Notes under the pieces: generated by a model | The model's database searches: none | Told to the model about the DNA's origin: nothing | What the model saw: the letters and a program-made list of their open reading frames with translations, nothing else | Source of the DNA: Eledone cirrhosa | Lineage: Eukaryota | Direction of reading: 5' to 3' | Length of the DNA: 64,000 nucleotides | NCBI GenBank assembly: GCA_964016885.1 | Contig: OZ024742.1 | Coordinates: 106,516,001 to 106,580,000 of the forward strand | Shown here: piece by piece, positions 1 through 52,106 of the stretch | How the letters are laid out: each line of letters starts with the position of its first letter | Position numbering within the stretch: position 1 is the first letter of the stretch | Made by a program: the position numbers and the translations under genes

Positions 1-7
1 ATATATA

Positions 8-797
8 TAAATATAATTCAGCGAGAATCGTATTTCGGCTGGTAGAAAAGCAAAACGAAACGCAAAATCGTAGAAATGCTGGCAAGCGCTCAATAGTTAA
101 AAAAGCTAAACAATATGTTAAAACGCCATACAAACTGAAAAAGTGGTTAAGAAGGCATTAACCACCTAAGCCAAAAAACAAATCAAGCTAAACAGGTCAA
201 ACAAAATAAATCATAAAAACCTGGACCCAAATGGAACTGGTGGTAAAATACAAATGCAGGGTTTCTATGACACCTAAATCAATAATACTGTCTGCTTAAA
301 ACTATAAGCTTTCAGCATAAAGATCGAACAAGGAATATCACGTTATCAACAGGTAATTTTGCTCTGTAACCAACTTTGCGAGTGACGCAGAGCTTAGTAA
401 ACGCACATGCGTGAGTCACAAGGGGAAATTCCCCATATTTTGGCAAATGAATTCAGTATGTGTATATCATACAAAAAATTGCATAGATAGCACAAATCGA
501 ATAAGCACTCAACCGGGTAGTTTTTAAAATAAACTTATGCAATTAATCTGTCAATAGAATTATTAACAGGTTAATTGTAAGACTCGGGAGATTAATACAA
601 ATATAATTCAGCGAGAATCGTATTTCGGCTGGTAGAAAAAGCGAAACGCAAAATCGTAGAAATGCTGGCAAGCGCTCAATAGTTAAAAAAAACTAGAGCT
701 AAACAATATGTTAAAACGCCATAGAAACTGAAATAGTAGTTAAGGAGGCATTAACCACCTAAGCCAAAAAACAAATCAAGCTAAACAGGTCAAACAA

Positions 798-2004: not shown

Positions 2005-2191
2005 ATAAACTATATATATGTGTTTGTGTCTATATTGTATCTGTATTATTTTTGACCGTCGGTCAGTCAATGGCAACATTGAGTAAGTTAGATTACCGAT
2101 ATAAAAGACAGCGAGAAGCGAAAACCAACCAAACAGTGAGTGTGTTCTGTTATTAATTCTGGCAATATTACACAAATATGACCCTCCCCAA

Positions 2192-2638
<447 letters not shown>

Positions 2639-2894
2639 AGAGTATTGAAGTTTGCTTGAAGCATTGTGGAACAATAAGTAAATATCTTTAAGTCGTTTGG
2701 AAGCCTCGACAATGGAAATGGGTAAATCTCCGGGTAACAAGGTCCGGTGGTGGGGAGAGAGATGTAAGTGGGTGTACGTTGAGATGCGTGGTGTGTATAA
2801 GATATGTGAGATGTGTAGAATGAAGGGAAGAGTATAAAGGATAAAATTAAAATAACAACACAAGAAAGAGTTACCTTGGGAGAGATTTAATAGT

Positions 2895-2930
2895 CCCTAT
2901 ATATTTCGGGTTCACATCCATCAACTGGGG
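2895..2930 (-). ncRNA. Degenerate hammerhead-like motif
   Basis: Minus: CCC-CAGTTGA-..-GAAA-TATATA-GGG; two core substitutions. Confidence 0.3.
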
Positions 2931-2984
2931 TTTTTTTCCGGGTGCTCACTTGATGTCAATGTGTCAAGAAAAATGTAAGAGAAG

Positions 2985-3212
2985 GAGGATACCTACGGAC
3001 CATTGATGAAAGGTTAACAGATCTAATCTCAAAGATACACATTCAACTTCATACCCGTTATAATTGCAGCTACATGTTATATACCAACTAGTCTGGACGA
3101 AAACATAACTAAACATGGATTGAAGGAACTTAGCTCTTTAATTCATAACCTACAATTGACCGCAATATCTGGAACCTTCAAAATTTACAAAGCATTCTTA
3201 CAATTCAAATAA
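2985..3212 (+). pseudogene. Degenerate C-terminus of an R4/Dong-like non-LTR element
   Basis: Translates ..IHNLQLTAISGTFKIYKAFLQFK*, resembling the REL-LINE C-terminal motif. Confidence 0.4.
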
Positions 3213-3337
3213 TGAGCGCTTGCATATGAGACAACGACAATTTCCCTTTATAACCTTGCCACCGGGAAGGTGGCCGGTCAAAAATAAACTCAAAATCCAG
3301 AGATAGAGATAACATACATGCACACATACATACATAA

Positions 3338-3432
<95 letters not shown>
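3338..3432. repeat. (GATA)n microsatellite
   Basis: Direct reading. Confidence 0.97.
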
Positions 3433-4115
3433 TGTGGTTATGTATCAGTATATATGTGTGTGTATCGTATGAGAGTATACGCTGTATAGCCGAGAAAAAA
3501 AGCTTAGTATTTGATAAGTATATACTAGCAGCTAACGAGACATGGGTTCACAACGACTGCTGACGTTCATTTTCCTTCATTGTGTTGTAAGGCATGGCAC
3601 TTAATTTTACATGCTTCAGTTGATGTAACTATCTTCTGGGAGATGATTGCTTACTATAGAGTGAAGATTTATCTGCCGTCCACTTTAACGCTACTGAATC
3701 CCACATCCAAGCACTGACTTTATGACCCCCTGTATAGCATGGAGATATTTATTGTAATCATATAATCATAAATACTGGTCGCTTGAAACGGTTGGCTCCC
3801 TCTCACTTGCAATATCTTTTTCTTACATTCCGAAAAAAGAAAAACAGATTTAACGCAAAAGAAGTTAGAAAATGTTTTACCATGTAAGATTTAAACTAGA
3901 GTTAAAGAGAAACATAGATGGAGGTTTAATGGATGTTAACGCCAGAAACGTGACACAGGCAATAGAATCCCAAAACCGAGTATTTGGGTACGCAGCAGTG
4001 ATATAAAATATCTTTCATTTTAATTAGTAGGGAGACAAGTCTTGTCGGAGAAAAAAATTGGTGGAAATGGCATTTGTAAACGAAATATACAGAACTGTTG
4101 TGCCTTGGTGAAAGA

Positions 4116-4184
<69 letters not shown>

Positions 4185-4227
4185 AAATAAACCAAAGAAG
4201 CCTTCAATACATCAAAAGTCTTTATTA

Positions 4228-6213: not shown

Positions 6214-7374
6214 ATGTTTTAAGTACGCCAAGGTCTGCAGTTTCAGGACAGTTAAGACATTTTGAATTACAGAATTCCACTATAAGGTATCTTTCTTGAC
6301 CATTTAAAAATTTAACCATCACTACTAAGTAGTGATGCTCCTCACCCCATATGCTCAAGCGCCATTAGATGGCACTGAAGACCACTACGAGGTCCACTTA
6401 TAACCAATTAAATAAGCTTCTGTTTGTCATCTTGTTTTTCAGCATTCACTTCAAGATACCTAAAGTCAGCACTTTACGTGAAAACTCGCGTACCCATGTA
6501 TTGAGAGCATTATCGACTCTATAAAGTAAATAAACTTTAAATAATGCATTGATTAGTCTTTTTTTATTTGCAATCCAAAACGTACACATGCACAAGACTG
6601 AAATTAGCCCTCAGTGACCCCAACATCTTTTTTACATTGGAAAGCTCCCAGTTTCCAATGAGACTGGATCATCCAAGGATTATCCAATAAAGTGGGTCTG
6701 TTTCTTCCTGAGCCAGTATTTAGCAATGCTCTAGTGTATGCCATTTTTTTTAAGAGTATGCAGACAGTCATGTAAAAATCAAAGTATTGAACACTGATAA
6801 GCAAGGGTGGCAAAGTAATAAACTGTGAAAAAGAACATCGTATGCAAAGATATATTAAGATAAATATGAGTCCAGTTAAAATGCTGCAAGTTGCAATGGA
6901 ATTGAAACTAATCATGCAAATGTAAAGATTCTATATATTCTCTATATTGTTTTGTGTAAATTATTTGTATATAATGTAAAATAATTATGATAAAATATTG
7001 CGTAATAAGAAATATGCAATTATATATTGATCTTTCAACTTCCATATATTAAGTATTGCACAGATTGTTATTGTATATTTTTGTTTTATTTATTGCACAG
7101 GCAACAATAATATTTATATGCAATAAACATACTAATCACCCTTTTTTTTTAAATAGCTCCTCCTAATTTTTTTTATCCCTGGTATTTACACAGGGCCTGC
7201 TAGTATAATATAATGTATTAATAGATATCGGACGATATTATGTGTGGATGCGTACATAAATACAAACATGCACCTATAGTCTTATACTTACACATGTATA
7301 CGTAACTATATGCTATATATATATATATATATATATAAATATATGTGTGTGTGTGTGTGTGTGTATGTGCGTGT

Positions 7375-8197: not shown

Positions 8198-8530
8198 ATG
8201 ATATTAATAAATGGAAACTATTTTTATAAAACCCCATTTATTTTATTATATATATTTCAAGGGTACCAAAATTTTGGTACGCTCTCATCAGATAAAATAT
8301 AAAAGTTGTTTTATAGATATTGACATATCCAAAAAGTTCAGTTTAGATAGACTATCCAAACTGAACTTAAAACGATAAGTTCTTGTTCTTTTTGGATATG
8401 TCAATATTTATAAAACAACTTTTGTATTTTATCTGATGAGAGCGTACCAAAATATTGGTACCCTTGAAATATATATAATAAAATAAATATGGTTTTATAA
8501 AGATAGTTTCCATTTATTAATATCATTGAT
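8193..8530. mobile_element. Fold-back pLTR fragment related to the 22.5-27.2 kb PLE, with two inverted HHRs (8240-8298 minus, 8426-8484 plus)
   Basis: ~145-bp inverted arms; ATTTTAT-CTGATGA-GAGcGTACC..GGTACcCTT-GAAA-TATATA-TA-ATAAAAT. Confidence 0.8.
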
Positions 8531-19162: not shown

Positions 19163-19304
19163 TTTCTAATAATGGTTTCCTTTATTGACCACAAGGCCCG
19201 ACATATAGGGGACAATACAGTAGACGGGGAGAGTGGGGGTTTTGGCATAAAAATCGAGTAAAAAATATGAAAACAATAACAATAAACAAGAAAAATACAA
19301 TAAT

Positions 19305-19915
19305 GACTTGCATGGACTTGCCTCTCCAGATGCCGAGTGCAAGCCCACCGACTTTTCCGGGTTAAGTTTCGCTCCCGTTAACCTTTCAAATTCCTCCAAT
19401 AAGGTGCTGATCACCACGATTTCCGAGGTGTCCGACACCAACACGGAGATGTCGTCCGCATAAGCCGACACAACCTTTCGGCGTCCCGGTTCGAGTGGGA
19501 TGCCCTGCAATAACTTCAGCTTCCGCAGTAAAGACTCAAGAGTCAATACGTACAGAAGGGAGGAGAGAGGGCACCCTTGACGGACCGATCGGGAGATCTG
19601 AAACGGTTCTGAGAGGTGGCCATTAACTTTAACCACCGAGCAGATGCCGCTGTGCATTGCAGCGATCCAGCTTCTGAAGATGGGGCCGACGCCAGCTGCC
19701 TTGAGGACAGCCTCCAGGTACCGATGGTCGACCCTGTCGAATGCTTTTGATTGATCTAAATTGATCAAAGCCCCACCGAAACCAGGTTTACACTCTATCC
19801 TCTCTAAGCATGGGGTGGAGGCTGTATTGTATGGACCTGGTCGGGATTGTGCAAGTTTGAGCCTCCCCAACCAAATCCTCGACGACAATCGCCACCCTCT
19901 TCGCTAACAACTTTA
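19305..19915 (-). pseudogene. L1/Tx1-like LINE reverse transcriptase fragment
   Basis: GGALINLDQSKAFDRVDH..VRQGCPLS..SAYADD. Confidence 0.85.
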
Positions 19916-22552: not shown

Positions 22553-22616
22553 ATTTTATTATACATATTTCAAGGGCAACCAAGGCAAATTATGGTGCGC
22601 TTTCATCAGATAAAAT
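22553..22616 (-). ncRNA. Hammerhead ribozyme in inverted pLTR
   Basis: Reverse complement of 23994-24057. Confidence 0.75.
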
Positions 22617-23993
22617 GCAGATTTGTTTTATAAATAAATATTGACATACCCGGAAAGAACCTTAACGGTTGGAGCTTCCTGGATAGTGGAGATAGTACAT
22701 TTATTGAGGGTAATACAAAGTTATGAGTGAGTATGCAAATGAGTGTCCGAAAGGTTGAAAAGATAACGGTTTATTTAAATTAAACTGTTGGAAGAAGATG
22801 ATATGTCAGGGAGAGAGAAAAAAAAGAAAAAAGAAAGGAGAAAGATAGAAGAGGAAAGAAAGAACGATTATACATATTGATAGTGAAGATAGAGTGCATG
22901 AAGAAATAAGTTTCAAAGGAGAAATATACACAGCGTAAGTATATCTAAGTGAAAGAAGAAATAAGATTAACGTGGAAGAATAATATTTATAATGCAGGGT
23001 ACATTATGTTTTGATTACAATACTTATAATGAGAGGTTGAAAAATTAGATTAAAATTAAAAATTAGAAATCAAAATTAAAGATTAAAATTTGCCTTAAAA
23101 TTTGCCTTAATATTAAATATGTGGAATAACCTATGGTTTATGCTTTAAATATATTCTTATGATAAATTTTTTTTTTTTTTAAACTTTATAGCAAGTAAAT
23201 TTATGACTTCGTATAAAATAACATATGGTTCATGTTTTAATTATATTCTTAAGATAAAAAATGTTTAACTTTTTAACTTTATAACATTTAATCCTTGGAT
23301 TAAAAAAATCACTTCTAACTTCCTTTACACTTCCTTACTGTTTTTATAATATAATTAAGTAGTTATTCCATTGTAAACTCTCGTAAATTTTTCATAAATT
23401 TAGAATTATTTGGATGTTTAAATTTTGACTTACAACTTTTAATAAAATAAACTATACTAGATTTTCTCTAATGTAAAATACTATATATTTATTTAAATAT
23501 TTTATAATCCTTAACATACACATTTAAACTAATTATTAATATTAAATTATTAAATTAAATCTTTAATATTAAGGCAAATTTTAATCTTTAATTCTGATCT
23601 CTAATTTTTTGTTTTAATCTAATTTTTCAACCTATCATTATAAGTATTGTAATCAAAACGTAATGTACCATGCATTATAAATATTATTCTTCCACGTTAA
23701 TCTTATTTCTTCTTTCACTTAGATATACTTACGCTGTGTATATTTCTCCTTTGAAACTTATTTCTTCATGCACTCTATCTTCACTATCAATATGTATAAT
23801 CGTTCTTTCTTTCCTCTTCTATCAGTTTAATTTAAATAAACCGTAATCTTTTCAACCTTTCTGACACTCATTTGCATACTCACTCATAACTTTGTATTAC
23901 CCTCAATAAATGTACTATCTCCACTATCCAGGAAGCTCCAACCGTTAAGTTTTTTTCCGGGTATGTCAATATTTATTTATAAAACAAATCTGT

Positions 23994-24057
23994 ATTTTAT
24001 CTGATGAAAGCGCACCATAATTTGCCTTGGTTGCCCTTGAAATATGTATAATAAAAT
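23994..24057 (+). ncRNA. Hammerhead ribozyme in 5' pLTR
   Basis: ATTTTAT-CTGATGA-AAGcGCACCA..TGGtTGCcCTT-GAAA-TATGTA-TA-ATAAAAT. Confidence 0.75.
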
Positions 24058-24215
24058 AAATATGGTTTTATAAATAGTTTCCGTTTATTAATATATTGTC
24101 CTTTATATCAGTTATAAATATTGTTAAGCTTGTTGAATCCCAACAAATTAATTATAACCTCTGCATATATTTTGCTCCTTTATTGTTGAACGCTTTAAAT
24201 TATAACTGATTAAAA

Positions 24216-26401
24216 ATGGAATTCTTTAGGATCTCTTTTTCTCTAATAGACATACCTTTACCTAAGAATAAGGACTTTCTAAAACAACTTATAGAAAAAT
24301 CGCACTCATTTATAAGAAGACTCAGATGGCGTGCTTTTCATTTCTGATGCGAAAGAAAATATTTCCAATCTTGATAGAATCTTCAAATCCAAAAAGAATC
24401 CACCTTCCAACAAACTATTAATGGAATTTGAAAATGAGATGATCTCTATCATACAAAGCATTAAATTTAAGAAAAACCACTTTGTAGGCCAGGATTACCT
24501 AAAAAGTTTCAAAAATAATATTGAAAACTTTGAAAAAACGGAAAAAATTCTTGTTAAATCAGATAAAACCAACAATCTTTACGGAATGCAAAAGGATGAT
24601 TACAATGATCTTATATTGAAGGAATTAAGGAAAAATTACAAAAGAGCAACGAATGATGACCTTGAAAAACTAAATACTGAAGCTTCTTATATAATGCAGG
24701 AATTAGGCATCGAAAATAGGACGCAACCCTTCATACCTAGGAAACCAAAAATTAATTTGAAGGACCATAAAAGAAATTTTGAAATTGAATTACCAGTTAG
24801 ATTGCTTGCACCATCTAAATCGGACCTTGGCATACTTAGCATATTTTAGATAGAATCATACCACAACTTAAGGAAATATCTTATTTAAAATTATGGAATG
24901 GGACTAATGAAGTTATTGACTGGTTTAAGGACATTAAATATAAACATAACAATAAATTCATTCAATTGGATATTGCTAATTATTACTCATCTATCACTCC
25001 TAATCTACTTAATAAAGCCCTTACATATGCATATAAATATACAGATTTAACTAGCAATGAAATGCACATTATCTTAACTACACGTAAAACATTAATTAAA
25101 TTTAGCAACCACCTTTGGACTAGAGCAGATAGGGATAACAATTTCGATATCACTATGGCGTCATCGGACTCGGCGCAATTAATGGATCTTGTGGGGCTTT
25201 TTATTAACAATACTTTACATAGGAAAATACCGGAGATGACCGGTGGTTTATATCGTGACAATATGCTATTACTTATTGAAAATAATAATAATTGTGAAAT
25301 AAATAGGAAAAGAATTATACAATTTTTTAATAGCGTTAATCTTAAAGTAGAAGTAGAGAATAATTATAAAATAGTTAATTTTTTAGATGTAACTTTAAAC
25401 CTTGATACTGGTCTTTATTATCCATTTCATAAAATAAATGAAAATTTAAACTATGTTAACTTTAATTCCAATCACCCCAGATCCGTTAAAAACACTATTG
25501 TAAATTCTGTGCAGCAACGTATTTCTAGAATTTCAGCGAATAAAAATATATTTTAAGATAAGGCACAATATTATAATGAAGGGTTAGGTAGAGCAGGCTA
25601 TAGTAATGAAATTAAATACATTGACAATAAGGATGTGCCAATTAACCATAACTATAAATATAATTATAATAGGAAACCTTGCACTAACTCGAAAATCAAA
25701 AGGAAAAATAGAACTAGAAATATATTATGGTTCGCTCCCCCTTTTTTATTAAGTATTAAAACTCCTATAGCTAAATTATTCTTTAAAGCTTTCCTAAGAC
25801 ACACAGGTATTACTCAATCTTTAATAGACATACTATTAAACTCTCATATTCCACCACTATGAATTTAGCGCAGAATATTAATAGAATTAATAATAGAAAC
25901 TTAAAACCTAACCATAATAGCATTAATACCCCTAGCAATATCCAATATAATGTTACGGCTCCCAATAATATAAATTCAAATAAATGTAATTGTAGAAATA
26001 AATCTAACTGTCCTCTAAATAATAATTGTTTAGTTAAAAATATAGTATACAATTGTAATGTCAAAACAAATGAAAACTCCTTTAACTATGTCGGCTCTAC
26101 TTTCACAGACTTCAAATCTCGTTTTAATAACCATAAATGTTCCTTTACGAATATTGGTAAAAAATCTTCAACTTCTCTATCTAACTTAGTATGGGACTTA
26201 AAATCCAAGAATATATTAACTATTCTTTACTTTGGAAAATTATCTCCAAAGCTCCTTCATTTATCCAAAAATTGCTCACTTTGCGTTGAAGAAATATTCT
26301 TTATATTAAAAAGTAAGAACTCTATTAATTTGCAAAATAATTTATTTAGTTCCTGTAAACATCGTTTAAACTCAACTTTTAAATATATATATAAAATGTA
26401 A
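24216..26401 (+). pseudogene. Frameshifted Penelope RT + GIY-YIG ORF
   Basis: N-term FSLIDIP..LIEK..FIRRLRWRAF; DIANYYSSI; GLYRDN (YRDD mutated); FLDVTL; CNC..CPL..NIVY..YVGST..FKSRFNNH; CSLCVEE. Confidence 0.9.
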
Positions 26402-27011
26402 TATATGATTTATCTCCTTTACATAATGTTTTCTATATCTATATACGATTCATATATATTTAATTTACTTTCTATTATCTCTACCTCATATATATACTAT
26501 ATACTTTATATTATTACACCTATCGAGAGATTATAAATTTTTTTTATATGACTGCTTGAAACTCCTTTAAGAAAAAAATTTCTTGAAAAACTTATGGAAG
26601 GTTTTAGGAAAAAAATCCTTTGAAAATTCCTTTGAAAGATATAGAAAAACCATTATTTTCATACCTTCCAATATTTTTATATCTTCAAACGTTTTAAATA
26701 TATATATATCCAAATGTTTATATATATGTGGAAAAACATGATTTTTATATATAGGTTTTTTATATATATGTGGAATAACCTATGGTTTATGCTTTAAATA
26801 TATTCTTAAGATAAATTTTTTTTTTATTTTTTAACTTTATAGCAAGTAAATTTATGACTTCGTATAAAATAACATATGGTTCATGTTTTAATTATATTCT
26901 TAAGATAACAAATTTACCCTAAATAAATGTACTATCTCCACTATCCAGGAAGCTCCAACTGTTAAGGTTTTTTTCCGGGTATGTCAATATTTATTTATAA
27001 AACAAATCTGT

Positions 27012-27075
27012 ATTTTATCTGATGAAAGCGCACCATAATTTGCCTTGGTTGCCCTTGAAATATGTATAATAAAAT
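27012..27075 (+). ncRNA. Hammerhead ribozyme in 3' pLTR
   Basis: Identical to 23994-24057. Confidence 0.75.
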
Positions 27076-27206
27076 AAATATGGTTTTATAAATATAGTTT
27101 CCGTTTATTAATATATTGTGTATTCCACTAAACTGTTGAGTGTTTTATATCAGTTATAAACATTTTTAAGCTTGCTGAATCCCAACAAATTAAATATAAC
27201 CTCTGC

Positions 27207-31152: not shown

Positions 31153-31695
<543 letters not shown>

Positions 31696-38059: not shown

Positions 38060-39032
38060 TATATCATAAAATGTCTTTCGAATCACTAGATATAATATAT
38101 ACCATTTCCTCTCCCAATTAGCATAATTAACCATATAAAAAATCAATTAGACAAAGCTATAAGAATAAAGGCTCCTATGAAGAAATCTCCGACAAATAAC
38201 CGAAAGCAGCAACGATAGATTATTTATCTAACATTTCTACAGCATGTAAAAATCGACCAGATATACAGTCAACCAGACACAATTAGGTGTAAAAATTGAA
38301 CTTAGAAGAATTGTGTACATACCAAATTACCTCTACCATGTAAACCTTTATATGTAATAATCCTCCGTTATGTTGAGATACAATTTGGCGGTATTAGGCT
38401 GCGCTTTCTAGCATTAAGCCTACCCGCTGTAAGCAACTAATCACATCCTTTCTAACTTGACCGCTGCCACGTCACGATTCTTAGCCATTTTTTAATGTAT
38501 TTTTGGCGCGATCACTTTGGATAATTAAATGTCTAATTTTGAGTTCGCTCCTGATGATTCAGAAACTCTAGACATTCCGTTATCGGATGTCTTAAAATAC
38601 GGATGAAACCATGGTAGAGGTAATTTGGTATGTACACAATTCTTCTAAGTTCAATTTTTACACCTAATTGTGTTTGACTGTATATCTGGTCGATTTTTAC
38701 ATGCTGTAGAAATGTTAGATAAATAATCTATCGTTGCCGCCGCGAAGGGGCTGCTTTCGGTTATTTGTCGGAGATTTCTTCATAGGAGACGTTATTCTTA
38801 TAGCTTTGTCTAATTGATTTTTTATATGGTTAATTATGCTAATTGGGAGAGGAAATGGTATATATTATATCTAGTGATTCTAAAGACATTTTATGATATA
38901 TAGCTCTGATTGTTTAATTTGTTAATTTTGCATTGAGCCACAACGTGACCTGTTGCAAAACACATATATATCTATGACTTTTTATATATATGTATGTAAA
39001 CCTTTATATGTAAATATAAAGGTTTACATATG
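38060..39032 (+). mobile_element. ~655-bp terminally redundant HHR unit (38338-39013) preceded by an inverted partial copy (38060-38340)
   Basis: ATGTAAACCTTTATATGTAA at both ends; diverged relative of 50962-52066. Confidence 0.75.
38548..38619 (+). ncRNA. Hammerhead ribozyme, long stem II (GUA)
   Basis: CTC-CTGATGA-..AGACATTCCG ttat CGGATGTCT..-GAAA-CCATGG-TA-GAG. Confidence 0.7.
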
Positions 39033-40548: not shown

Positions 40549-43500
40549 TAACTTTGAATAACTTTGAAATGTTTTGGCCAGTATTGGCCCAGGCCATGTC
40601 TAACTTAATAGCACCACCTGGCGAAGTCTTTCAATTCAGGATTTGGGCACCATGGCCCATTCGAAAAGGGAATTACTGTTTGCGGAGACATATCCCGGTG
40701 TGGGTGGTTTGTCCGGGATTACTTGGAGGAATTTGTCCAAAGACTTCTTGAATTTTGTGTGGTCAGTTTCTGTTTTGACGTGTCTTGGTGTGATGTTGAA
40801 GAGAGCAGTGCCAATTGAGGTGAAATAATTGTGCCGTATTGTTGTTATGAGTTGCGATTTAGATTTTTGTTTGGGACGGATAGCACGGGGCCCAAGCCTT
40901 GGGTGTATTTTGAAGGTGATGCCAACATCATTTGGGCAGTGCTGATGAAACATTTTCCACATCATGCAGATAATATAACGCTCACGGCGACGTTGGAGTG
41001 AGTAAGTTTCAGCTTTTCTAGTCGACCCCAGTAGTCAAGGTCTGACATGCCATCTATCTTTTTCGTGATTGCCCTTTGGGGAGCTTCAAGTTTCATGATA
41101 CTTTGTTTCGTGTGGGGAGACCACAGTATTCAAGGTGTGGTCGGGCAAAAGTGGAGAAGGATAATGGTGTGGGAATCTCTCTACTGGAAGGTTCTGAGGA
41201 TCCAGGAACACATTTTGCGGGCCATGTCAACTTTGCTGCTTATATGCGTGGCCCAGCTTATGTTGCTGTCCACAGTTACTCCCAAGTCTCTGATGTTGTT
41301 AGATGCCACGAGAGTTTCACCGGAGGGAAGGGAGTACGGGAGTTTCAGAGCATCCTCTTTTCCAAAGTGGATCTGTTCGAATTTGTCTTCGTTCAGTAAC
41401 ATGTTGTTCTTTTCCGCCCATTGGGTAACATCCAGTAGGTCTGACTGAAGGCTTATCCGGTCATCCACGCCATTGGTGACCTTCTGGAGCTTGGAATCAT
41501 CAGCGAAAATTCTAATGTTGCTGTGTTTGATGATGTCAGTGATGTCATTAATATAGATGATGAAGAGAAGTGGGTCCAACACAGTGCTTTGTGGGACCCC
41601 ACTACTGACTTTGGCTGGGCTGGATTTGACTCCTTCGACTACAACATGTTGGGTTCTGTTTGACAGGAAGCACTTGATCCACTGCAGCAGCTTTCCAGTG
41701 ACACCAATATTGGACAGCTTTCTTAGTAGAATGTTGTGATCAACCCTGTCAAAGGCCTTGCTGAAATCAAGGTAGATAACATCAGTGTTGGAACCCTCTC
41801 CCAAGGCTCTCAAAATGTCATCAAAGTGATGCAGTATATGCGTCAGGCAATCCCTTCCATTACGGAATCAATGCTGGTTGGAGTTCAGCATATCGTTACT
41901 CTCAAGGAAGTGAGTCATTCGCGATCTCACCACTCTCTCAAATACCTTAATGATATGAGAGGTGAGTGAGATTGGACGGTAATTCACGGCAAGGGATCTG
42001 TTTCCTTTTTTGAAAACTGGGATAACAGACTGGGATAGAAGGTTTTCTGGCACATATCCAGCATCCAGTGAGTTCCGCCACAGATTGGCAAGAGTAGATG
42101 CAAGTTGGTGTTGACACGCCTTCTAGACACAAACAGGGAACCTATCGAGACCTACTGCTGAATTATGCTTGATTTCCTTTATTGCCGCTAAGACATCAGG
42201 GGCGCCAAACGTTATGTCCGATAAGGTGTAATGGGGAGTAACATCGCCGATACAACCCAGATCGGCCATATCAGGATTGCTGAAAACAGAGCAGTATTGT
42301 TTCTGCAGTATCTCACCCATGGTTTTAGCATTATCTTGAAGAGTGCCATTTTCATCAATTAGAGGGCCAACAGTAGAGCCAGTGATTTTGTGTTTTTTTT
42401 GCAAATGAAAAGAACACTTTGGGATTGAGTTTAATCTTCTCAATGGCCCAGGCCTCTTCAGCTCTTCTCTGATTGTTGATGATAGACATCATATTGTTTT
42501 GGAGGTTATGTTTTTTAATCTCTAGTGATGAAATGACAGTCAAGTTGGTGTGTTGCTGCTGACAGTATTTCAGCTTGTTGATTTTTTTGTTAGTTCTCTT
42601 AATTTTCCTGATGAGCGTTTTTCTATTTCTAGGGATTCTGCTCTTAGATTTGTTTATAGTTCTTAATAGCGTGTGTTTTGCACATGTTTGTAACAGTGTC
42701 CACAAATGTCTGCCAGGACTTTTTGATGTTAGTGGGTGTGTGAGTGTGCGTGAAGGACCAGTCGACATATGCAAGATCATGACTGATCGCTTCCCAGTTT
42801 GCATTGTGGAAATCCATAGCGTCAAACGGATGGACAGGAGAGATGACATTGGGTTTGTATATTGGACGGTGGAATCTCAGATCACAGAGAACCATGTCAT
42901 GATCAGAGAGTAGAGTTTTCTCCACTGCAATATTGTGGATATTGTCAGTGTGATTGCTGAAAATTAAGTCTAGGACGTTTTTGTGGCACCTCGTTGGTTC
43001 GAGCACCAGTTGGGACAGGAAGAAATCATCCATGAAGACAAGAAGCGATTCCACTGCTTCCCTGTCAGAGGTTGAGGCAGAAGAACCTGGTGGCAGGCTG
43101 TTTGTGGACCAGTCAACTCCGGGGAGGTTGAAGTCCCCCATCATTAAGATGTTGTCAGGGTGACACTCTTGGATGAAACACTTTATGCTGTTGAGGCAAT
43201 CCTTGAAGCATGGTAAAGGCGTTTGGGGTGGCCTATAGAGCCCAACTACTATTAGGTTGTTGGTCTGACTGAATACAGTGACTGCTTCGCAGTATCCAAT
43301 AGAAAATATGTTCATAGCCTCTGTTGAGAAAGAATTATAGACATAAATGGCAGTCCCACCCTTTCTTCTGCCAGCGCGATCAGCACGGATGGCTTTGAAA
43401 TTTTTCACTTTCACCTCAGCTTCCAAGTGGAAGAGATGGGTTTCAGTGAGACGAAGAAAGGGATGTGGTTTGGATGGACATCAACCCTGTCCTCCAGGAA

Positions 43501-44645: not shown

Positions 44646-45323
44646 GACGTAAAATAAGAAAATTTAAAAAAAATTTAAAAATTAACTTACTTACTAAACT
44701 TTTCACTCCAACTAATTACTTTCTGTAATGGGATAAAGATAGTTACGTAATATAACCATCGAGAATTCATTACGTCATCAGGGAGTCTATTCTCAGCTAA
44801 GTCTCCAGGCAATGCGCGGACACTGGGGACTCATATAAAAATAATAATAATTCGGTAGATGGACAGCAAGCGGGGACTGGATTCCATGCACTGAAAAGTT
44901 CGCTGTCTCTGGTCAAATGGCAGATTCTAAAGAATCAATCACGTGACACTGAGGCTAGTCGGAAGGAGTGGGTTGGTAAGATGACAGAAGCCTACTACCA
45001 CACCAATGAATTAGTAGTGGTTTTGGCAGGTTTGCTCAACAAATAAATAATTTGGAGATAAATATAGAGAATTTAGTATATCTACCAACATATGCGTACA
45101 GATGTACACTAATGCTAGCAAATACATAAGTTATGTCATAGTACCTAGGTGGTTCAATGCAGGAGGATGCCGAACAATAATATGAAAGACGTAAAATAAG
45201 AAAATTTTAAAAAAATTTAAAAATTAACTTACTAAAATTTTCACTCCAACTAATTAGTTTCTGTAATGGGATAAAGATAGTTACGTAATATAACCATCGA
45301 GAATTCATTACGTCATCAGGGAG
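44640..45323 (-). mobile_element. ~1.3-mer of a ~540-bp non-coding unit with two tandem HHRs (44706-44785, 45244-45323); retrozyme-like
   Basis: 44640-44785 repeats at 45182-45323; minus: CTCC-CTGATGA-cGTAATG..CATTACa-GAAA-CTAATTAG-TT-GGAG; (TA)n on both sides. Confidence 0.78.
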
Positions 45324-45441
45324 TATATATATGTATATATGTATATATATATATATGTTTATGTATGTGTATATGTGTATATATGTATATGCTTGTATAT
45401 ATGTATATGCTTGTATATGTATATGTATGTATGTGTGTATA

Positions 45442-50656: not shown

Positions 50657-50961
50657 GGGAGAGTTTTTTGGTAACGTTTATCTATTATTTCTTCAAATTC
50701 ACATTTTAGACTTAGCTCCGTTTAATTGATTATTTGTCTAGTTAATTTCTACGAGGAAAGATTTGGTAAATTTTATCTCCTCATAAAGTAATATCGATAA
50801 CATTTATCTGTTATTTCTTCAAAGTTACATTTTAAACTGAGTTCCGTTTAAATTATTATTAATCTGGTTGATTTCTACGGACTAAGAAGAAAGAATTGGA
50901 TAAATTTTGTCTGACTATTCTTCAAACTTATACTTATTTATATATATATATATATATATAT

Positions 50962-52066
50962 ACAAAAAAGTACGTCCATAGAATCATTTGATAAAATATA
51001 AACAGTATTTCCACTCCCAATCAGCATAATCAACCACACAAAAAATCAATTAAACAAGTCTATAAGATTAAAAGGCACCTATGAAGAAACATTAGATAAA
51101 TAAACGATAGCTATTTATCCGCGATCAACAACCACAGAATATTTACCCAGTATTTCTAATAGCCCGTGGAAATCGATTAGATATATCGCCAACCATGCAC
51201 AATTAGGTACAAAATCAAAGTTAGAAGAAAAAGTATATTGCTCTGATTGTTGATTATTTAATTAATTAATTTGTCATTGAGCCACACCGTGAATTGATGC
51301 CAAAAACACATATATATATCTATGGCTCTGTCTAGTTTATGTATATGTAAATCTATATATTTGATAATCTCCCATATGGGTGAGAAACAATTTAGGCAGT
51401 ATTCGGCTACGCTTTCTAGCAACCAGCCCACTCGCCGTAAGGCACCAATCACAAACTTTCTGACTTGACCACTAGCCACGTCACAGTTCATAGCTATTTT
51501 GAATTCGTTTCTGGCGGGGATCAATTAAGAAAAATCTTTGTCCAATTGAGTTTGTTTCCTGATGATTTCGAAACTCGTGAATTTATCTTGGATCGGATAT
51601 TTCCAAAAAGCGAATGAAACCCCATCGGGTAGAGACATAATTTTGGTATGCTTATATACATTTTTTATTCTAACTTTGATTTTGTACCTAATTGTGTCTG
51701 GTTGGCGATATATCTAATCGATTTCCACGGGCTATTAGAAATACTGGGTAATATTCTGTGGTTGTTGATCGCGGATAAATAGCTATCGTTTATTTATCTA
51801 TTGTTTCTTCATAGGTGCCTTTTAATCTTATAGCCTTGTTTAATTCATTTTTTGTGTGGTTGATTATGCTGATTGGGAGAGGAAATACTGTATATATTTT
51901 ATCAAATGATTCTATGGACATACTTCCTTGTATATTGCTCTGATTGTTGATTATTTAATTAATTAATTTGTCATTGAGCCACACCGTGAATGAATGCCAA
52001 AAACATATATATATATATATATATATATGGCTCTGTCTAGTTTATGTATATGTAAATCTATATATT
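50962..52066 (+). mobile_element. ~700-bp terminally redundant HHR unit (51233-52066) with upstream inverted partial copy (50962-51235)
   Basis: 51233-51361 repeats at 51930-52066; 50965-51232 is the reverse complement of 51660-51928. Confidence 0.8.
51553..51637 (+). ncRNA. Hammerhead ribozyme (GUA)
   Basis: TGTTTC-CTGATGA-..CGAAT-GAAA-CCC catc GGG-TA-GAGACA. Confidence 0.72.
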
Positions 52067-52067
52067 T

Positions 52068-52106
<39 letters not shown>

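What the first reader, a model, noticed from the sequence alone, without database searches (positions are those of the whole stretch)
50962..52066. Second family of terminally redundant ~650-700 bp HHR units (also 38060-39032 and 31260-31695)
Seen: three copies of a non-coding family with one long-stem-II HHR each. Two copies have direct terminal redundancy (~130 nt; ~20 nt) plus an upstream ~270-bp inverted partial copy. No ORF is attached. The same architecture appears at 8-805 (~590-bp period). Inference: non-autonomous PLE-mobilised elements, possibly with a circular RNA intermediate.
Basis: partly seen in the sequence, partly recalled or inferred. Interest (0 to 1): 0.75.

Follow-up and report, generated by a model that had tools for sequence, protein, structure and literature searches.

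The report
Long hammerhead retrozyme with Penelope footprints
This is one of at least two thousand candidate copies of a 700-base non-coding repeat that carries a hammerhead ribozyme motif and lies in TA-repeats in the two-armed, one-sided-tail layout of Penelope-like retrotransposons, so it is likely a passenger copied by their enzymes: a known kind of element, here in an unusually long form.

Summary
Window 50958-52073 is one insertion of a 697-bp ORF-less unit. It has an inverted partial arm, a full unit and a 136-bp repeat of the unit's start, and (TA)n lies on both sides. Two more copies sit at 31259-31687 and 38071-39018.

Each copy carries a type I hammerhead motif with a 50-nt helix II. 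Rfam misses it. The core is invariant across diverged lineages and the helices covary.

The genome holds at least 2,100-4,200 candidate copies. In 51 loci (78 arms), 74 arms end at one of two fixed points: E1 (unit 685-697) or E2 (118-138). Of 24 head-to-head pairs, 17 combine E1 with E2. Arms reach 1.57 units. 5' ends pile up just 3' of the predicted ribozyme cut. All 11 arms that end at 120-122 carry a (CT)3-34 run that the opposite flank lacks in the 10 loci printed.

One real Penelope element in the same genome shows the same layout. No helper with shared sequence was found, and no RNA data exist.

Verdict: a non-autonomous, likely Penelope-mobilised retrozyme, a new member of a known kind. 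A circular RNA stage is untested. The scan noted the same kind of element before on other DNA of this genome, but not this family.

The parts
50935..50961 (.). (TA)n on the left of the insertion, abutting the E1 end of the inverted arm
   Evidence: sequence; arm-end listing
50958..51238 (-). Inverted arm: unit 422->693, 3' end (E1) facing left. Joined head-to-head to the direct arm over a 6-bp GTATAT overlap (51233-51238)
51233..51929 (+). One full 697-bp unit (my numbering 1-697), no ORF
51553..51637 (+). Type I hammerhead motif. Helix I 6 bp; CUGAUGA at 51559-51565; helix II about 50 nt with U.U at its base; GAAA at 51617-51620; helix III ACCC/GGGU. Predicted cut after A51631 (unit 399|400)
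51858..51885 (+). Most conserved block between subfamilies, just upstream of E1. Includes a small hairpin (GGUUGAUUA-UGC-UGAUUGG) kept through G.U pairs that work only on this strand
   Evidence: the hairpin is read by eye from the alignment
51930..52073 (+). 'Tail': second copy of unit 1-136 that ends the direct arm at E2 and runs into (TA)n
52066..52095 (.). (TA)n on the right of the insertion
31259..31687 (+). Second copy (90%): single arm, unit 268->693 (E1), (TA)n on both sides, hammerhead motif at 31313-31397
38071..38310 (-). Third copy (diverged subfamily, 73%): inverted arm, unit 433->689 (E1)
38338..39018 (+). Third copy: direct arm, unit 113->697->128 (E2). Hammerhead core at about 38545-38622, predicted cut after 38616

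Best explanation
This is a 697-bp non-coding, hammerhead-bearing repeat family whose copies lie in (TA)n as 5'-truncated arms ending at two fixed points, and it is likely a non-autonomous retroelement (a long 'non-LTR retrozyme') copied by the reverse transcriptase/GIY-YIG endonuclease of Penelope-like elements.

Inferred mechanism:
- The sense (ribozyme) strand is transcribed from copies longer than one unit.
- Part of the RNA is probably cut, or at least folded, at the hammerhead (unit 399|400).
- The enzyme would break a TA-repeat and prime cDNA on both DNA ends from two internal UA-rich sites of the RNA. These are E1 (unit 693-697, followed by GUAUAU) and E2 (unit 120-137), about 125-140 nt apart, usually one site per end.
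- The two cDNAs run towards the RNA 5' end and are joined head-to-head at short homologies. This would give an inverted partial arm beside a longer arm that carries the 'tail' between E1 and E2.
- At E2 the enzyme would sometimes copy CU repeatedly before moving on, leaving (CT)n.

Shown here: the anatomy, the fixed ends, the pairing of E1 with E2, the hot spots of 5' ends, the terminal (CT)n, and the same layout in one real Penelope element. Inferred: the enzyme, the RNA forms and cleavage.
For: Abundance and boundaries:
- 4228 candidate places for the unit and 2144 for its last 138 nt; 40 were scored each time, at 87-100% identity.
- 51 non-overlapping loci gave 78 arms. 49 end at 685-697, 25 at 118-138 and 4 elsewhere.
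- 66 of the 74 E1/E2 ends have (TA)>=4 within 40 nt.

Polarity:
- Truncation is always on the side that is 5' on the hammerhead strand.

Two-armed copies:
- 24 head-to-head pairs: 17 E1/E2, 3 E1/E1, 4 with another end. One of the E1/E1 pairs (L013) runs on to 134 at 79% identity.
- From the counts, independent draws would give about 45% mixed pairs (my arithmetic).
- In 8 further pairs found through an E2 end, the partner ends at 686-697 in 5, at 666/671 in 2, and elsewhere in 1.

Arm length:
- 28 of 78 arms exceed 697 nt, with a maximum of 1096. They cross the 697|1 junction once or twice with a subfamily-specific, templated junction.

5' ends (104 arms):
- Termination is 6 times the average at 397-408 (9 arms, p=2.9e-5) and at 1-12 (9 arms, p=6e-5).
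- One arm starts exactly at G400 (L095); most start at 404-411.

Hammerhead:
- The core is invariant in 9 lineages. 84.4% of cells are paired against 36-48% when partners are slid. 6 of 15 pairs change on both sides (2 of 500 shuffles reach this).
- A consensus-like copy folds at minimum free energy into the three-way junction.
- 22 of 42 distinct main-family copies keep the whole motif.

(CT)n:
- All 11 arms ending at 120-122 are followed by (CT)3-34 and then (TA)n. None of the other 67 arms is.
- The opposite flank has none in 10 of 10 loci.
- 25 exact sites genome-wide against 0 for the reversed control, with (CT)4-38 in 17 new loci.

Helpers exist:
- 10,597 GIY-YIG candidates; 150 were scored and all are over the cut-off.
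- A 938-aa frame carries RVT_1 followed by GIY-YIG.
- A two-armed RT/EN element (L049) has both 3' ends in (TA)n and a 62-nt tail on one side only.

Literature (passages read): PMC8557442 (pLTRs, inverted truncated copy, one-sided tail, (TA)n bias); PMC11167929 (two internal initiation sites, both strands extended); PMC7229834 and bioRxiv 10.64898/2026.07.22.740005 (animal retrozymes as non-autonomous relatives of Penelope-like elements).
Against: - No helper was identified. In 33 Penelope loci the family occurs only as a neighbour at least 1.1 kb from the frames (L043, L054, L061, L063). No similarity was found in pLTR-like flanks and no protein remnant (best tblastn E 0.24). These 33 are a tiny sample of more than 10,000 candidates.
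- The tail is 125-140 nt, not the 30-40 bp described for Penelope-like elements.
- Both initiation sites are homologous to the TA target. The one element studied in vitro initiated at a site not homologous to the DNA (PMC11167929).
- The main family has a U.U pair at the base of helix II. In axolotl retrozymes this goes with weak cleavage (PMC7229834).
- Rfam's hammerhead models do not score the motif.
- Most hot-spot 5' ends lie 4-11 nt 3' of the predicted cut, not on it. This fits a stop at the folded helix I, or microhomology at nearby TA-like words, as well as cleavage.
- Many arms read through one or two uncut ribozyme sites.
- Target duplications could not be read: 3 weak candidates in 51 loci.
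- The loci are the best-scoring copies, not a random sample.
Confidence: 0.75

Rival explanations
1. The template is a unit-length circular RNA, made by hammerhead cleavage and ligation and copied round and round. It is not a linear transcript of partly tandem copies. This concerns the form of the template and is compatible with the main reading.
For: Copies behave as segments of a virtual concatemer, with fixed 3' ends and variable 5' ends. 28 of 78 arms are longer than a unit and cross the 697|1 junction up to twice. Genomic copies reach at most 1.57 units, so lengths above one unit need a way to be regenerated. Helix III is a palindrome (ACCCCAUGGGGU), as in dimer-acting retrozyme ribozymes. 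Animal retrozymes are known to form circles (PMC7229834).
Against: No arm exceeds 1.57 units and no array was seen among the scored loci. Rolling-circle copying should give some long arrays. The circular fold is no better than shuffles (z -1.48, 61% paired). No RNA data exist. Linear transcripts of the 1.2-1.6-unit copies already explain every arm seen.
Confidence: 0.3
2. The repeat is only the pseudo-LTR part of an autonomous Penelope-like element, and the redundancy is an ordinary partial tandem.
For: Hammerheads sit in the pLTRs of Penelope-like elements, and partial tandems are their normal form (PMC4209133 search listing; PMC8557442 passages).
Against: In 51 loci both outer ends mostly meet (TA)n and then unrelated sequence. 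There is no frame over 88 aa. No family sequence lies next to any of the RT/EN frames sampled, and there is no coding remnant.
Confidence: 0.04
3. It is a SINE-like passenger of a LINE, with the inverted arms made by twin priming.
For: LINE endonuclease and RT fragments lie in the window (41181-43480). Twin priming does give inverted 5' parts.
Against: Both outer ends are fixed RNA positions, and in 17 of 24 pairs they are two different ones. Twin priming gives one fixed end only. There is no poly(A) or LINE-like tail and no similarity to the window's LINE. The same layout is seen in a GIY-YIG element.
Confidence: 0.06
4. It is a DNA-level product: a foldback or MITE-like transposon, or a satellite reshaped by unequal crossing-over and inversion.
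For: There are long inverted repeats and partial tandems, and the repeats sit in recombination-prone microsatellites.
Against: Inner junctions differ from locus to locus while outer ends are constant. Arms are unequal and there are no terminal inverted repeats at the outer ends. The copies are dispersed over many chromosomes. Truncation is polar, and the 5'-end hot spot sits at the ribozyme.
Confidence: 0.04

Closest known systems
Non-LTR retrozymes of animals (Cervera and de la Pena 2020, PMC7229834, passages read; Li, Clavereau and Pollet 2026, bioRxiv 10.64898/2026.07.22.740005, abstract and passages read)
   Same: A non-coding, AT-rich repeat (34.6% G+C) with one type I hammerhead per unit. 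It is dispersed in high copy number and co-resident with Penelope-like elements. 'Solo' and dimer-like copies are described. A U.U pair at the base of helix II and dimer-prone helix III are known from axolotl retrozymes.
   Different: The unit is 697 nt, against about 170-400 nt (about 300-bp repeats) in PMC7229834. Helix II is about 50 nt, so Rfam models miss it. No arrays were seen: at most 1.57 units per arm. Expression and circles are untested. The RNA is not notably self-paired.
Insertion architecture of endonuclease-bearing Penelope-like elements (Craig et al. 2021, PMC8557442; Frangieh et al. 2024, PMC11167929; passages read)
   Same: 5' truncation; an upstream direct or inverted truncated copy; an extension ('tail') at one end only; (TA)n targets; two internal initiation sites; extension of both DNA strands. 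One RT/EN element of this genome shows the same layout.
   Different: There is no RT/EN frame. The tail is 125-140 nt instead of 30-40 bp. The initiation sites are UA-rich and homologous to the target. A terminal (CT)n run is present. I found no description of such a run in one search (8 papers held the terms 'Penelope-like', 'slippage' and 'microsatellite'; I read passages of only one).
Minimal hammerheads of Penelope-like elements (Cervera and de la Pena 2014, PMC4209133: search listing and abstract start only; Lunse et al. 2017: recalled, not read)
   Same: A type I topology on the sense strand of the retroelement, with a palindromic helix III region.
   Different: In the main family helix III is a stable 4-bp stem with a tetraloop, and helix II is very long. 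The minimal variants have 1-2-bp helix III and short helices.

Membership tests
Hammerhead ribozyme, type I | Conserved core: C3 U4 G5 A6 N7 G8 A9, G12 A13 A14, A15.1-U16.1, H17 not G | tested here: met
   The core is present in 51553-51637 and 31313-31397 and invariant in 9 diverged lineages. The numbering of core positions is recalled.
Hammerhead ribozyme, type I | Three helices around the core, helix I open, supported by covariation | tested here: met
   84.4% of cells paired against 36-48% when slid. 6 of 15 pairs change on both sides (2 of 500 shuffles). The minimum-free-energy fold of L002 gives the junction. Energies are not better than shuffles (z -0.45 to -2.2).
Hammerhead ribozyme, type I | Match to the curated Rfam models | tested here: not met
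   No hammerhead match in 50900-52100 at E<=10 and none at gathering score in the window. The likely reason is the 50-nt helix II (inference).
Hammerhead ribozyme, type I | Self-cleavage | not testable with these tools
   Only an indirect trace: a 5'-end hot spot at 397-408 beside the predicted cut.
Animal non-LTR retrozyme | Non-coding unit with a type I hammerhead, low G+C | tested here: met
   Longest frame 88 aa; 34.6% G+C; motif as above.
Animal non-LTR retrozyme | Head-to-tail repeats (dimers to multimers) of about 170-400 nt | tested here: not met
   The unit is 697 nt. Arms reach at most 1096 nt (1.57 units) and no arrays occur among the scored loci.
Animal non-LTR retrozyme | Expressed as linear and circular monomer RNA | not testable with these tools
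   No RNA run is listed. Contigs of unknown kind show only that the repeat is abundant.
Penelope-like element (autonomous) | A frame with RT and GIY-YIG endonuclease | tested here: not met
   No frame over 88 aa. No tblastn match to 37 frames of 300 aa or more taken from the 20 fetched Penelope loci, some of them not Penelope frames (best E 0.24).
Penelope-type insertion (mobilised in trans) | 5' truncation, an upstream direct or inverted partial copy, a one-sided tail, a microsatellite target | tested here: met
   The same layout is seen in an RT/EN element of this genome (one locus).
Penelope-type insertion (mobilised in trans) | Sequence shared with a resident autonomous element (pLTR or initiation region) | tested here: not met
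   None in 33 sampled loci out of more than 10,000 candidates. The sample is too small to exclude it.

The most novel reading that the evidence does not exclude
The copies are a fossil record of one enzyme complex writing a ribozyme-bearing RNA into both ends of a broken TA-repeat. It starts from two fixed internal sites 125-140 nt apart, one per DNA end. At one site the telomerase-related reverse transcriptase stutters on a CU dinucleotide and so makes (CT)n microsatellites de novo. The pile-up of 5' ends at unit 400-411 records hammerhead cleavage in vivo.
Probability: 0.3. Interest if true: 0.65.

Novelty: new member of a known kind. Interest (0 to 1): 0.45.

Why it matters
Animal retrozymes and their link to Penelope-like elements are already in print, and this scan has met the same kind of element repeatedly in this genome. 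The family itself is therefore not a surprise. Its value lies in its anatomy.
- The unit is long enough to place the ends of each arm to within a few bases.
- The two initiation sites lie far enough apart to be told apart.
- One site leaves a (CT)n signature.
- The 5'-end hot spot sits beside the predicted ribozyme cut.

Together these give concrete predictions for the poorly understood Penelope insertion cycle and for what the ribozyme does in it. The family also shows that hammerheads with long helix II escape the Rfam models, so ribozyme censuses based on those models undercount.

Tried and rejected
- Rfam at gathering score and at E<=10: no hammerhead in the finding.
- RNA evidence: no RNA holder is listed. 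The three runs laid are contigs of unknown kind from one sample. They show many fragments of the repeat and nothing about transcripts, ends or circles.
- Helper search:
  - The family was compared with 12 + 1 + 20 loci around GIY-YIG hits by blastn, by an nhmmer profile of the E1-to-E2 region, and by tblastn. Only neighbouring insertions at least 1.1 kb from the frames were found.
  - Smith-Waterman comparison with a small hammerhead element that shares the UUUC/GAAU helix II base gave only TA-repeat matches.
  - That element proved to be a separate palindromic insertion of about 200 bp, not a pLTR.
- Conserved-block search (a 28-nt hairpin block and an 18-nt AC-rich block) in the window and the Penelope loci: only family copies and weak 4-5-mismatch hits.
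- Consensus fold of the E1-to-E2 region across 4 lineages: nothing convincing (-8.6 kcal/mol).
- Target-site duplications: 3 weak candidates in 51 loci.
- A listing of microsatellites around Penelope frames was too noisy to define their ends.
- Earlier notes by sequence: none for this family.

Full report
**1. What is there**

The window lies in a 3.0-Gb genome, at G000:C3:106516001-106580000. It is AT-rich and full of (TA)n and (CA)n.

At the finding, 50958-51238 is the reverse complement of 51654-51935 (283 bp, 95%). 51930-52073 repeats 51233-51368 (about 91%, period 697). I number the unit 1-697 = window 51233-51929. In these terms the locus reads: inverted (422->693), then 1->697, then 1->136, with (TA)n on both sides.

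- 31259-31687 is a single arm, 268->693, at 90% identity.
- 38071-39018 belongs to a diverged subfamily (72-75%). It has an inverted arm 433->689 and a direct arm 113->697->128.

The unit has no frame longer than 88 aa in a dimer.

The stretch 8-805 has a 590-bp direct redundancy (5-215 against 595-808, 92%). It has no canonical CUGANGA on either strand.

**2. The hammerhead**

Rfam finds no family at gathering score in the window and no hammerhead in 50900-52100 even at E<=10. Three sub-threshold Hammerhead_1 hits lie elsewhere in the window.

A rule-based scan asked for the core, closure of helix II, a helix III hairpin ending in U followed by H, and helix I of at least 4 bp. It finds 8 motifs in the window, among them 51553-51637 and 31313-31397, and none in 20 shuffles.

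The motif reads:
- helix I of 6 bp;
- CUGAUGA;
- a helix II of about 50 nt, made of a closing helix, a conserved internal loop (AAACUC / AAAAAG) and a distal hairpin;
- GAAA;
- helix III, ACCC-CAUG-GGGU in consensus-like copies;
- a cut predicted after A399 (window 51631).

A consensus-like copy (L002) folds into exactly this junction at minimum free energy. The energies are no better than shuffles.

Nine lineages that differ by up to about 35% keep every core base. On their alignment:
- 84.4% of cells pair, against 36-48% when the partners are slid;
- 6 of 15 pairs change on both sides, a figure that 2 of 500 shuffles reach.

The main family has U.U at the base of helix II, where two older lineages (L074, L005) have G-C. 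The same mismatch goes with weak monomeric cleavage in an axolotl retrozyme (PMC7229834, passage read). Helix III is a palindrome, so the ribozyme may act as a dimer (inference). 22 of 42 distinct main-family copies keep the whole motif. Cleavage itself is untested.

**3. The family in the genome**

The unit has 4228 candidate places and its last 138 nt has 2144. Only 40 were scored each time, at 87-100% identity. These are the best-scoring copies, not a random sample.

After removing overlaps, 51 loci gave 78 co-linear arms (only alignments of 82% identity or more were kept).

*3' ends*
- 49 arms end at 685-697 (E1), 25 at 118-138 (E2) and 4 elsewhere.
- 66 of the 74 E1/E2 ends have (TA)>=4 within 40 nt.
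- E1 reads ...GGAC(G/A)TACTT(TCTT/TATT), followed by GTATAT that merges into (TA)n.
- E2 reads ...GTAAATCT, followed either by ATATATTTTATA merging into (TA)n or by a (CT) run.
- Both sites are therefore UA-rich words of the RNA that can pair with a TA-repeat end.
- A third (TA)6 tract, at unit 78-90, is never a 3' end.

*Flanks.* Beyond the microsatellites the flanks are heterogeneous. 105 pairs among 102 flanks share other repeats, at varying offsets. The unit therefore does not continue into a longer element.

*Arm length.* 28 of 78 arms exceed one unit, with a maximum of 1096 nt. They cross the 697|1 junction once or twice. The four bases at that junction are the same within a subfamily, so they are templated rather than added.

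**4. Two-armed insertions**

24 loci have two arms head-to-head with their 3' ends pointing outward.
- 17 pairs combine E1 with E2.
- 3 pairs are E1/E1. One of these (L013) continues to 134 at 79% identity, below my filter.
- 4 pairs have another kind of end.

With 49 E1 and 25 E2 arms, independent draws would give about 45% mixed pairs (my arithmetic).

The loci found through an E2 end contain 8 more pairs. The partner ends at 686-697 in 5, at 666/671 in 2, and elsewhere in 1. None has an E2 partner.

So the 125-140 nt between E1 and E2 behave as the one-sided 'tail' of Penelope insertions, but three to four times longer than the 30-40 bp described (PMC8557442). This fits the finding that a Penelope enzyme extends both strands and starts at two internal RNA sites (PMC11167929).

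I checked one real element of this genome. In L049, two inverted arms each carry a 551-aa frame, one of them with the GIY-YIG hit. Both arms end in (TA)n, and the right arm carries 62 extra bases before it. This is a single locus.

**5. 5' ends**

Over 104 arms, the rate of termination per base is about six times the average in two 12-nt bins.
- 397-408: 9 arms, p=2.9e-5. This lies directly 3' of the predicted cut.
- 1-12: 9 arms, p=6e-5. This is the GTATAT word.

One arm begins exactly at G400 (L095). Most begin at 404-411, and two loci are perfect palindromes centred there.

This is a trace of the ribozyme in vivo, but it does not separate three causes:
- run-off on cleaved RNA followed by trimming;
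- a stop at the folded helix I;
- joining at nearby TA-like microhomology.

Many arms read through uncut sites, so cleavage is not obligatory.

**6. (CT)n**

- All 11 arms that end at 120-122 are followed by (CT)3-34 and then (TA)n. None of the other 67 arms is.
- The opposite flank has no (CT)n or (AG)n in 10 of 10 loci.
- In the multi-unit arms mapped, the alignment runs unbroken through unit 122, so no internal (CT)n was seen.
- An exact 25-mer of the end plus four CT occurs 25 times in the genome, and 0 times for the reversed control. In 17 new loci the runs are 4-38 units long.

The simplest reading is repeated copying of CU (unit 121-122) at initiation, before the enzyme moves on (inference). 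Rival readings are expansion after insertion and compound target repeats.

One search for a description in print held 8 papers for 'Penelope-like' + 'slippage' + 'microsatellite'. I read passages of only one of them, and it does not describe this.

**7. Helper and RNA**

The genome has 10,597 GIY-YIG candidates. 150 were scored and all are over the cut-off. It also has open frames of 844-1096 aa with RVT_1; one of 938 aa has RVT_1 followed by GIY-YIG.

None of 33 sampled loci shares sequence with this family, except as a separate neighbour at least 1.1 kb from the frame.

The best-conserved part of the unit between subfamilies is 631-680, just before E1 (0.79-0.89 identity against 0.65 overall). 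It follows a small hairpin that is kept through G.U pairs possible only on the sense strand (read by eye). This is a candidate recognition signal, untested.

No RNA run was available. The unit as a circle folds no better than shuffles (z -1.48).

**8. Verdict**

The repeat is a non-autonomous retroelement with a hammerhead motif, inserted in the Penelope manner. It works like the non-LTR retrozymes of animals (PMC7229834; bioRxiv 10.64898/2026.07.22.740005). It departs from their description in three ways: unit size (697 against about 170-400 nt), the very long helix II, and the lack of arrays.

Its circular-RNA idea stays open.

Earlier notes of this scan describe the same kind of two-armed, two-end-point insertions for other ribozyme families and for Penelope elements of this genome. 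None covers this family. I tested the pattern independently here.

Noticed in passing
window 8239-8299(-), 8425-8485(+), 22553-22616(-), 23993-24058(+), 27011-27076(+): A second hammerhead family (UAUUUUAU-CUGAUGA...GAAA-UAUGUAU-A-AUAAAAUA) with 8-bp helix I and 2-bp helix III. One head-to-head pair lies at 8.2-8.5 kb. Two direct copies lie 3.0 kb apart around frames with no Pfam match (24316-26401).
   Followed up: partly
window 45242-45325 (-): Another hammerhead-like motif with a 51-nt helix II, unrelated in sequence to the family studied.
   Followed up: no
Words like CATTGAGCTATACC lie about 70-110 nt from two of them and resemble the family's AC-rich tail block at 4-5 mismatches.
   Followed up: no
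window 5-215 and 595-808: A 92% direct repeat with a 590-bp period and no canonical CUGANGA core on either strand.
   Followed up: partly
L062:3131-3325, L053:8004-8205 (also L044, L049): A palindromic two-armed mini-insertion of about 200 bp in (TA)n. Its hammerhead (CUGAUGA-UUUC-UAAA-GAAU-GAAAC) has the same U.U-based helix II closure as the family studied, but without the 40-nt insert.
   Followed up: partly
L046:6694-6773 and 7153-7232: A 459-bp tandem repeat with a hammerhead motif that also has a 50-nt helix II, 1.7 kb downstream of an 844-aa RT frame.
   Followed up: no
L045, L052, L053 (about 200 nt after the RT/EN frame; in L045 also upstream of it): The sequence ...CTTTCCTACACACACACATA is followed by (CA)n and then (TA)n at the same place in several Penelope copies. 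This could be the same kind of dinucleotide stutter at an element end as the (CT)n seen here. L053:7289-7329 shows (TA)9-C-(AG)11 next to another element's end.
   Followed up: no
L049:6517-6579 and window 51919-51929: The word ACTTTCT directly precedes the TA-repeat both at this family's E1 end (GTACTTTCTT) and at the tail end of the two-armed RT/EN element in L049 (CACTTTCTAA). With only 7 nt it may be chance.
   Followed up: no
window 41181-43480 (-) and 19166-19903 (-): LINE remains: Exo_endo_phos_2 plus RVT_1 frames, and a separate 245-aa RVT_1 fragment of undetermined type.
   Followed up: no
L065 (G000:C10:23024269-23027406): The only insertion with a readable candidate target duplication. 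TATCTTTATA lies 19 nt from both ends, separated from the element by (TA)n on the E1 side and by (CT)4(TA)n on the E2 side. This hints that part of the flanking (TA)n is also added at insertion.
   Followed up: partly
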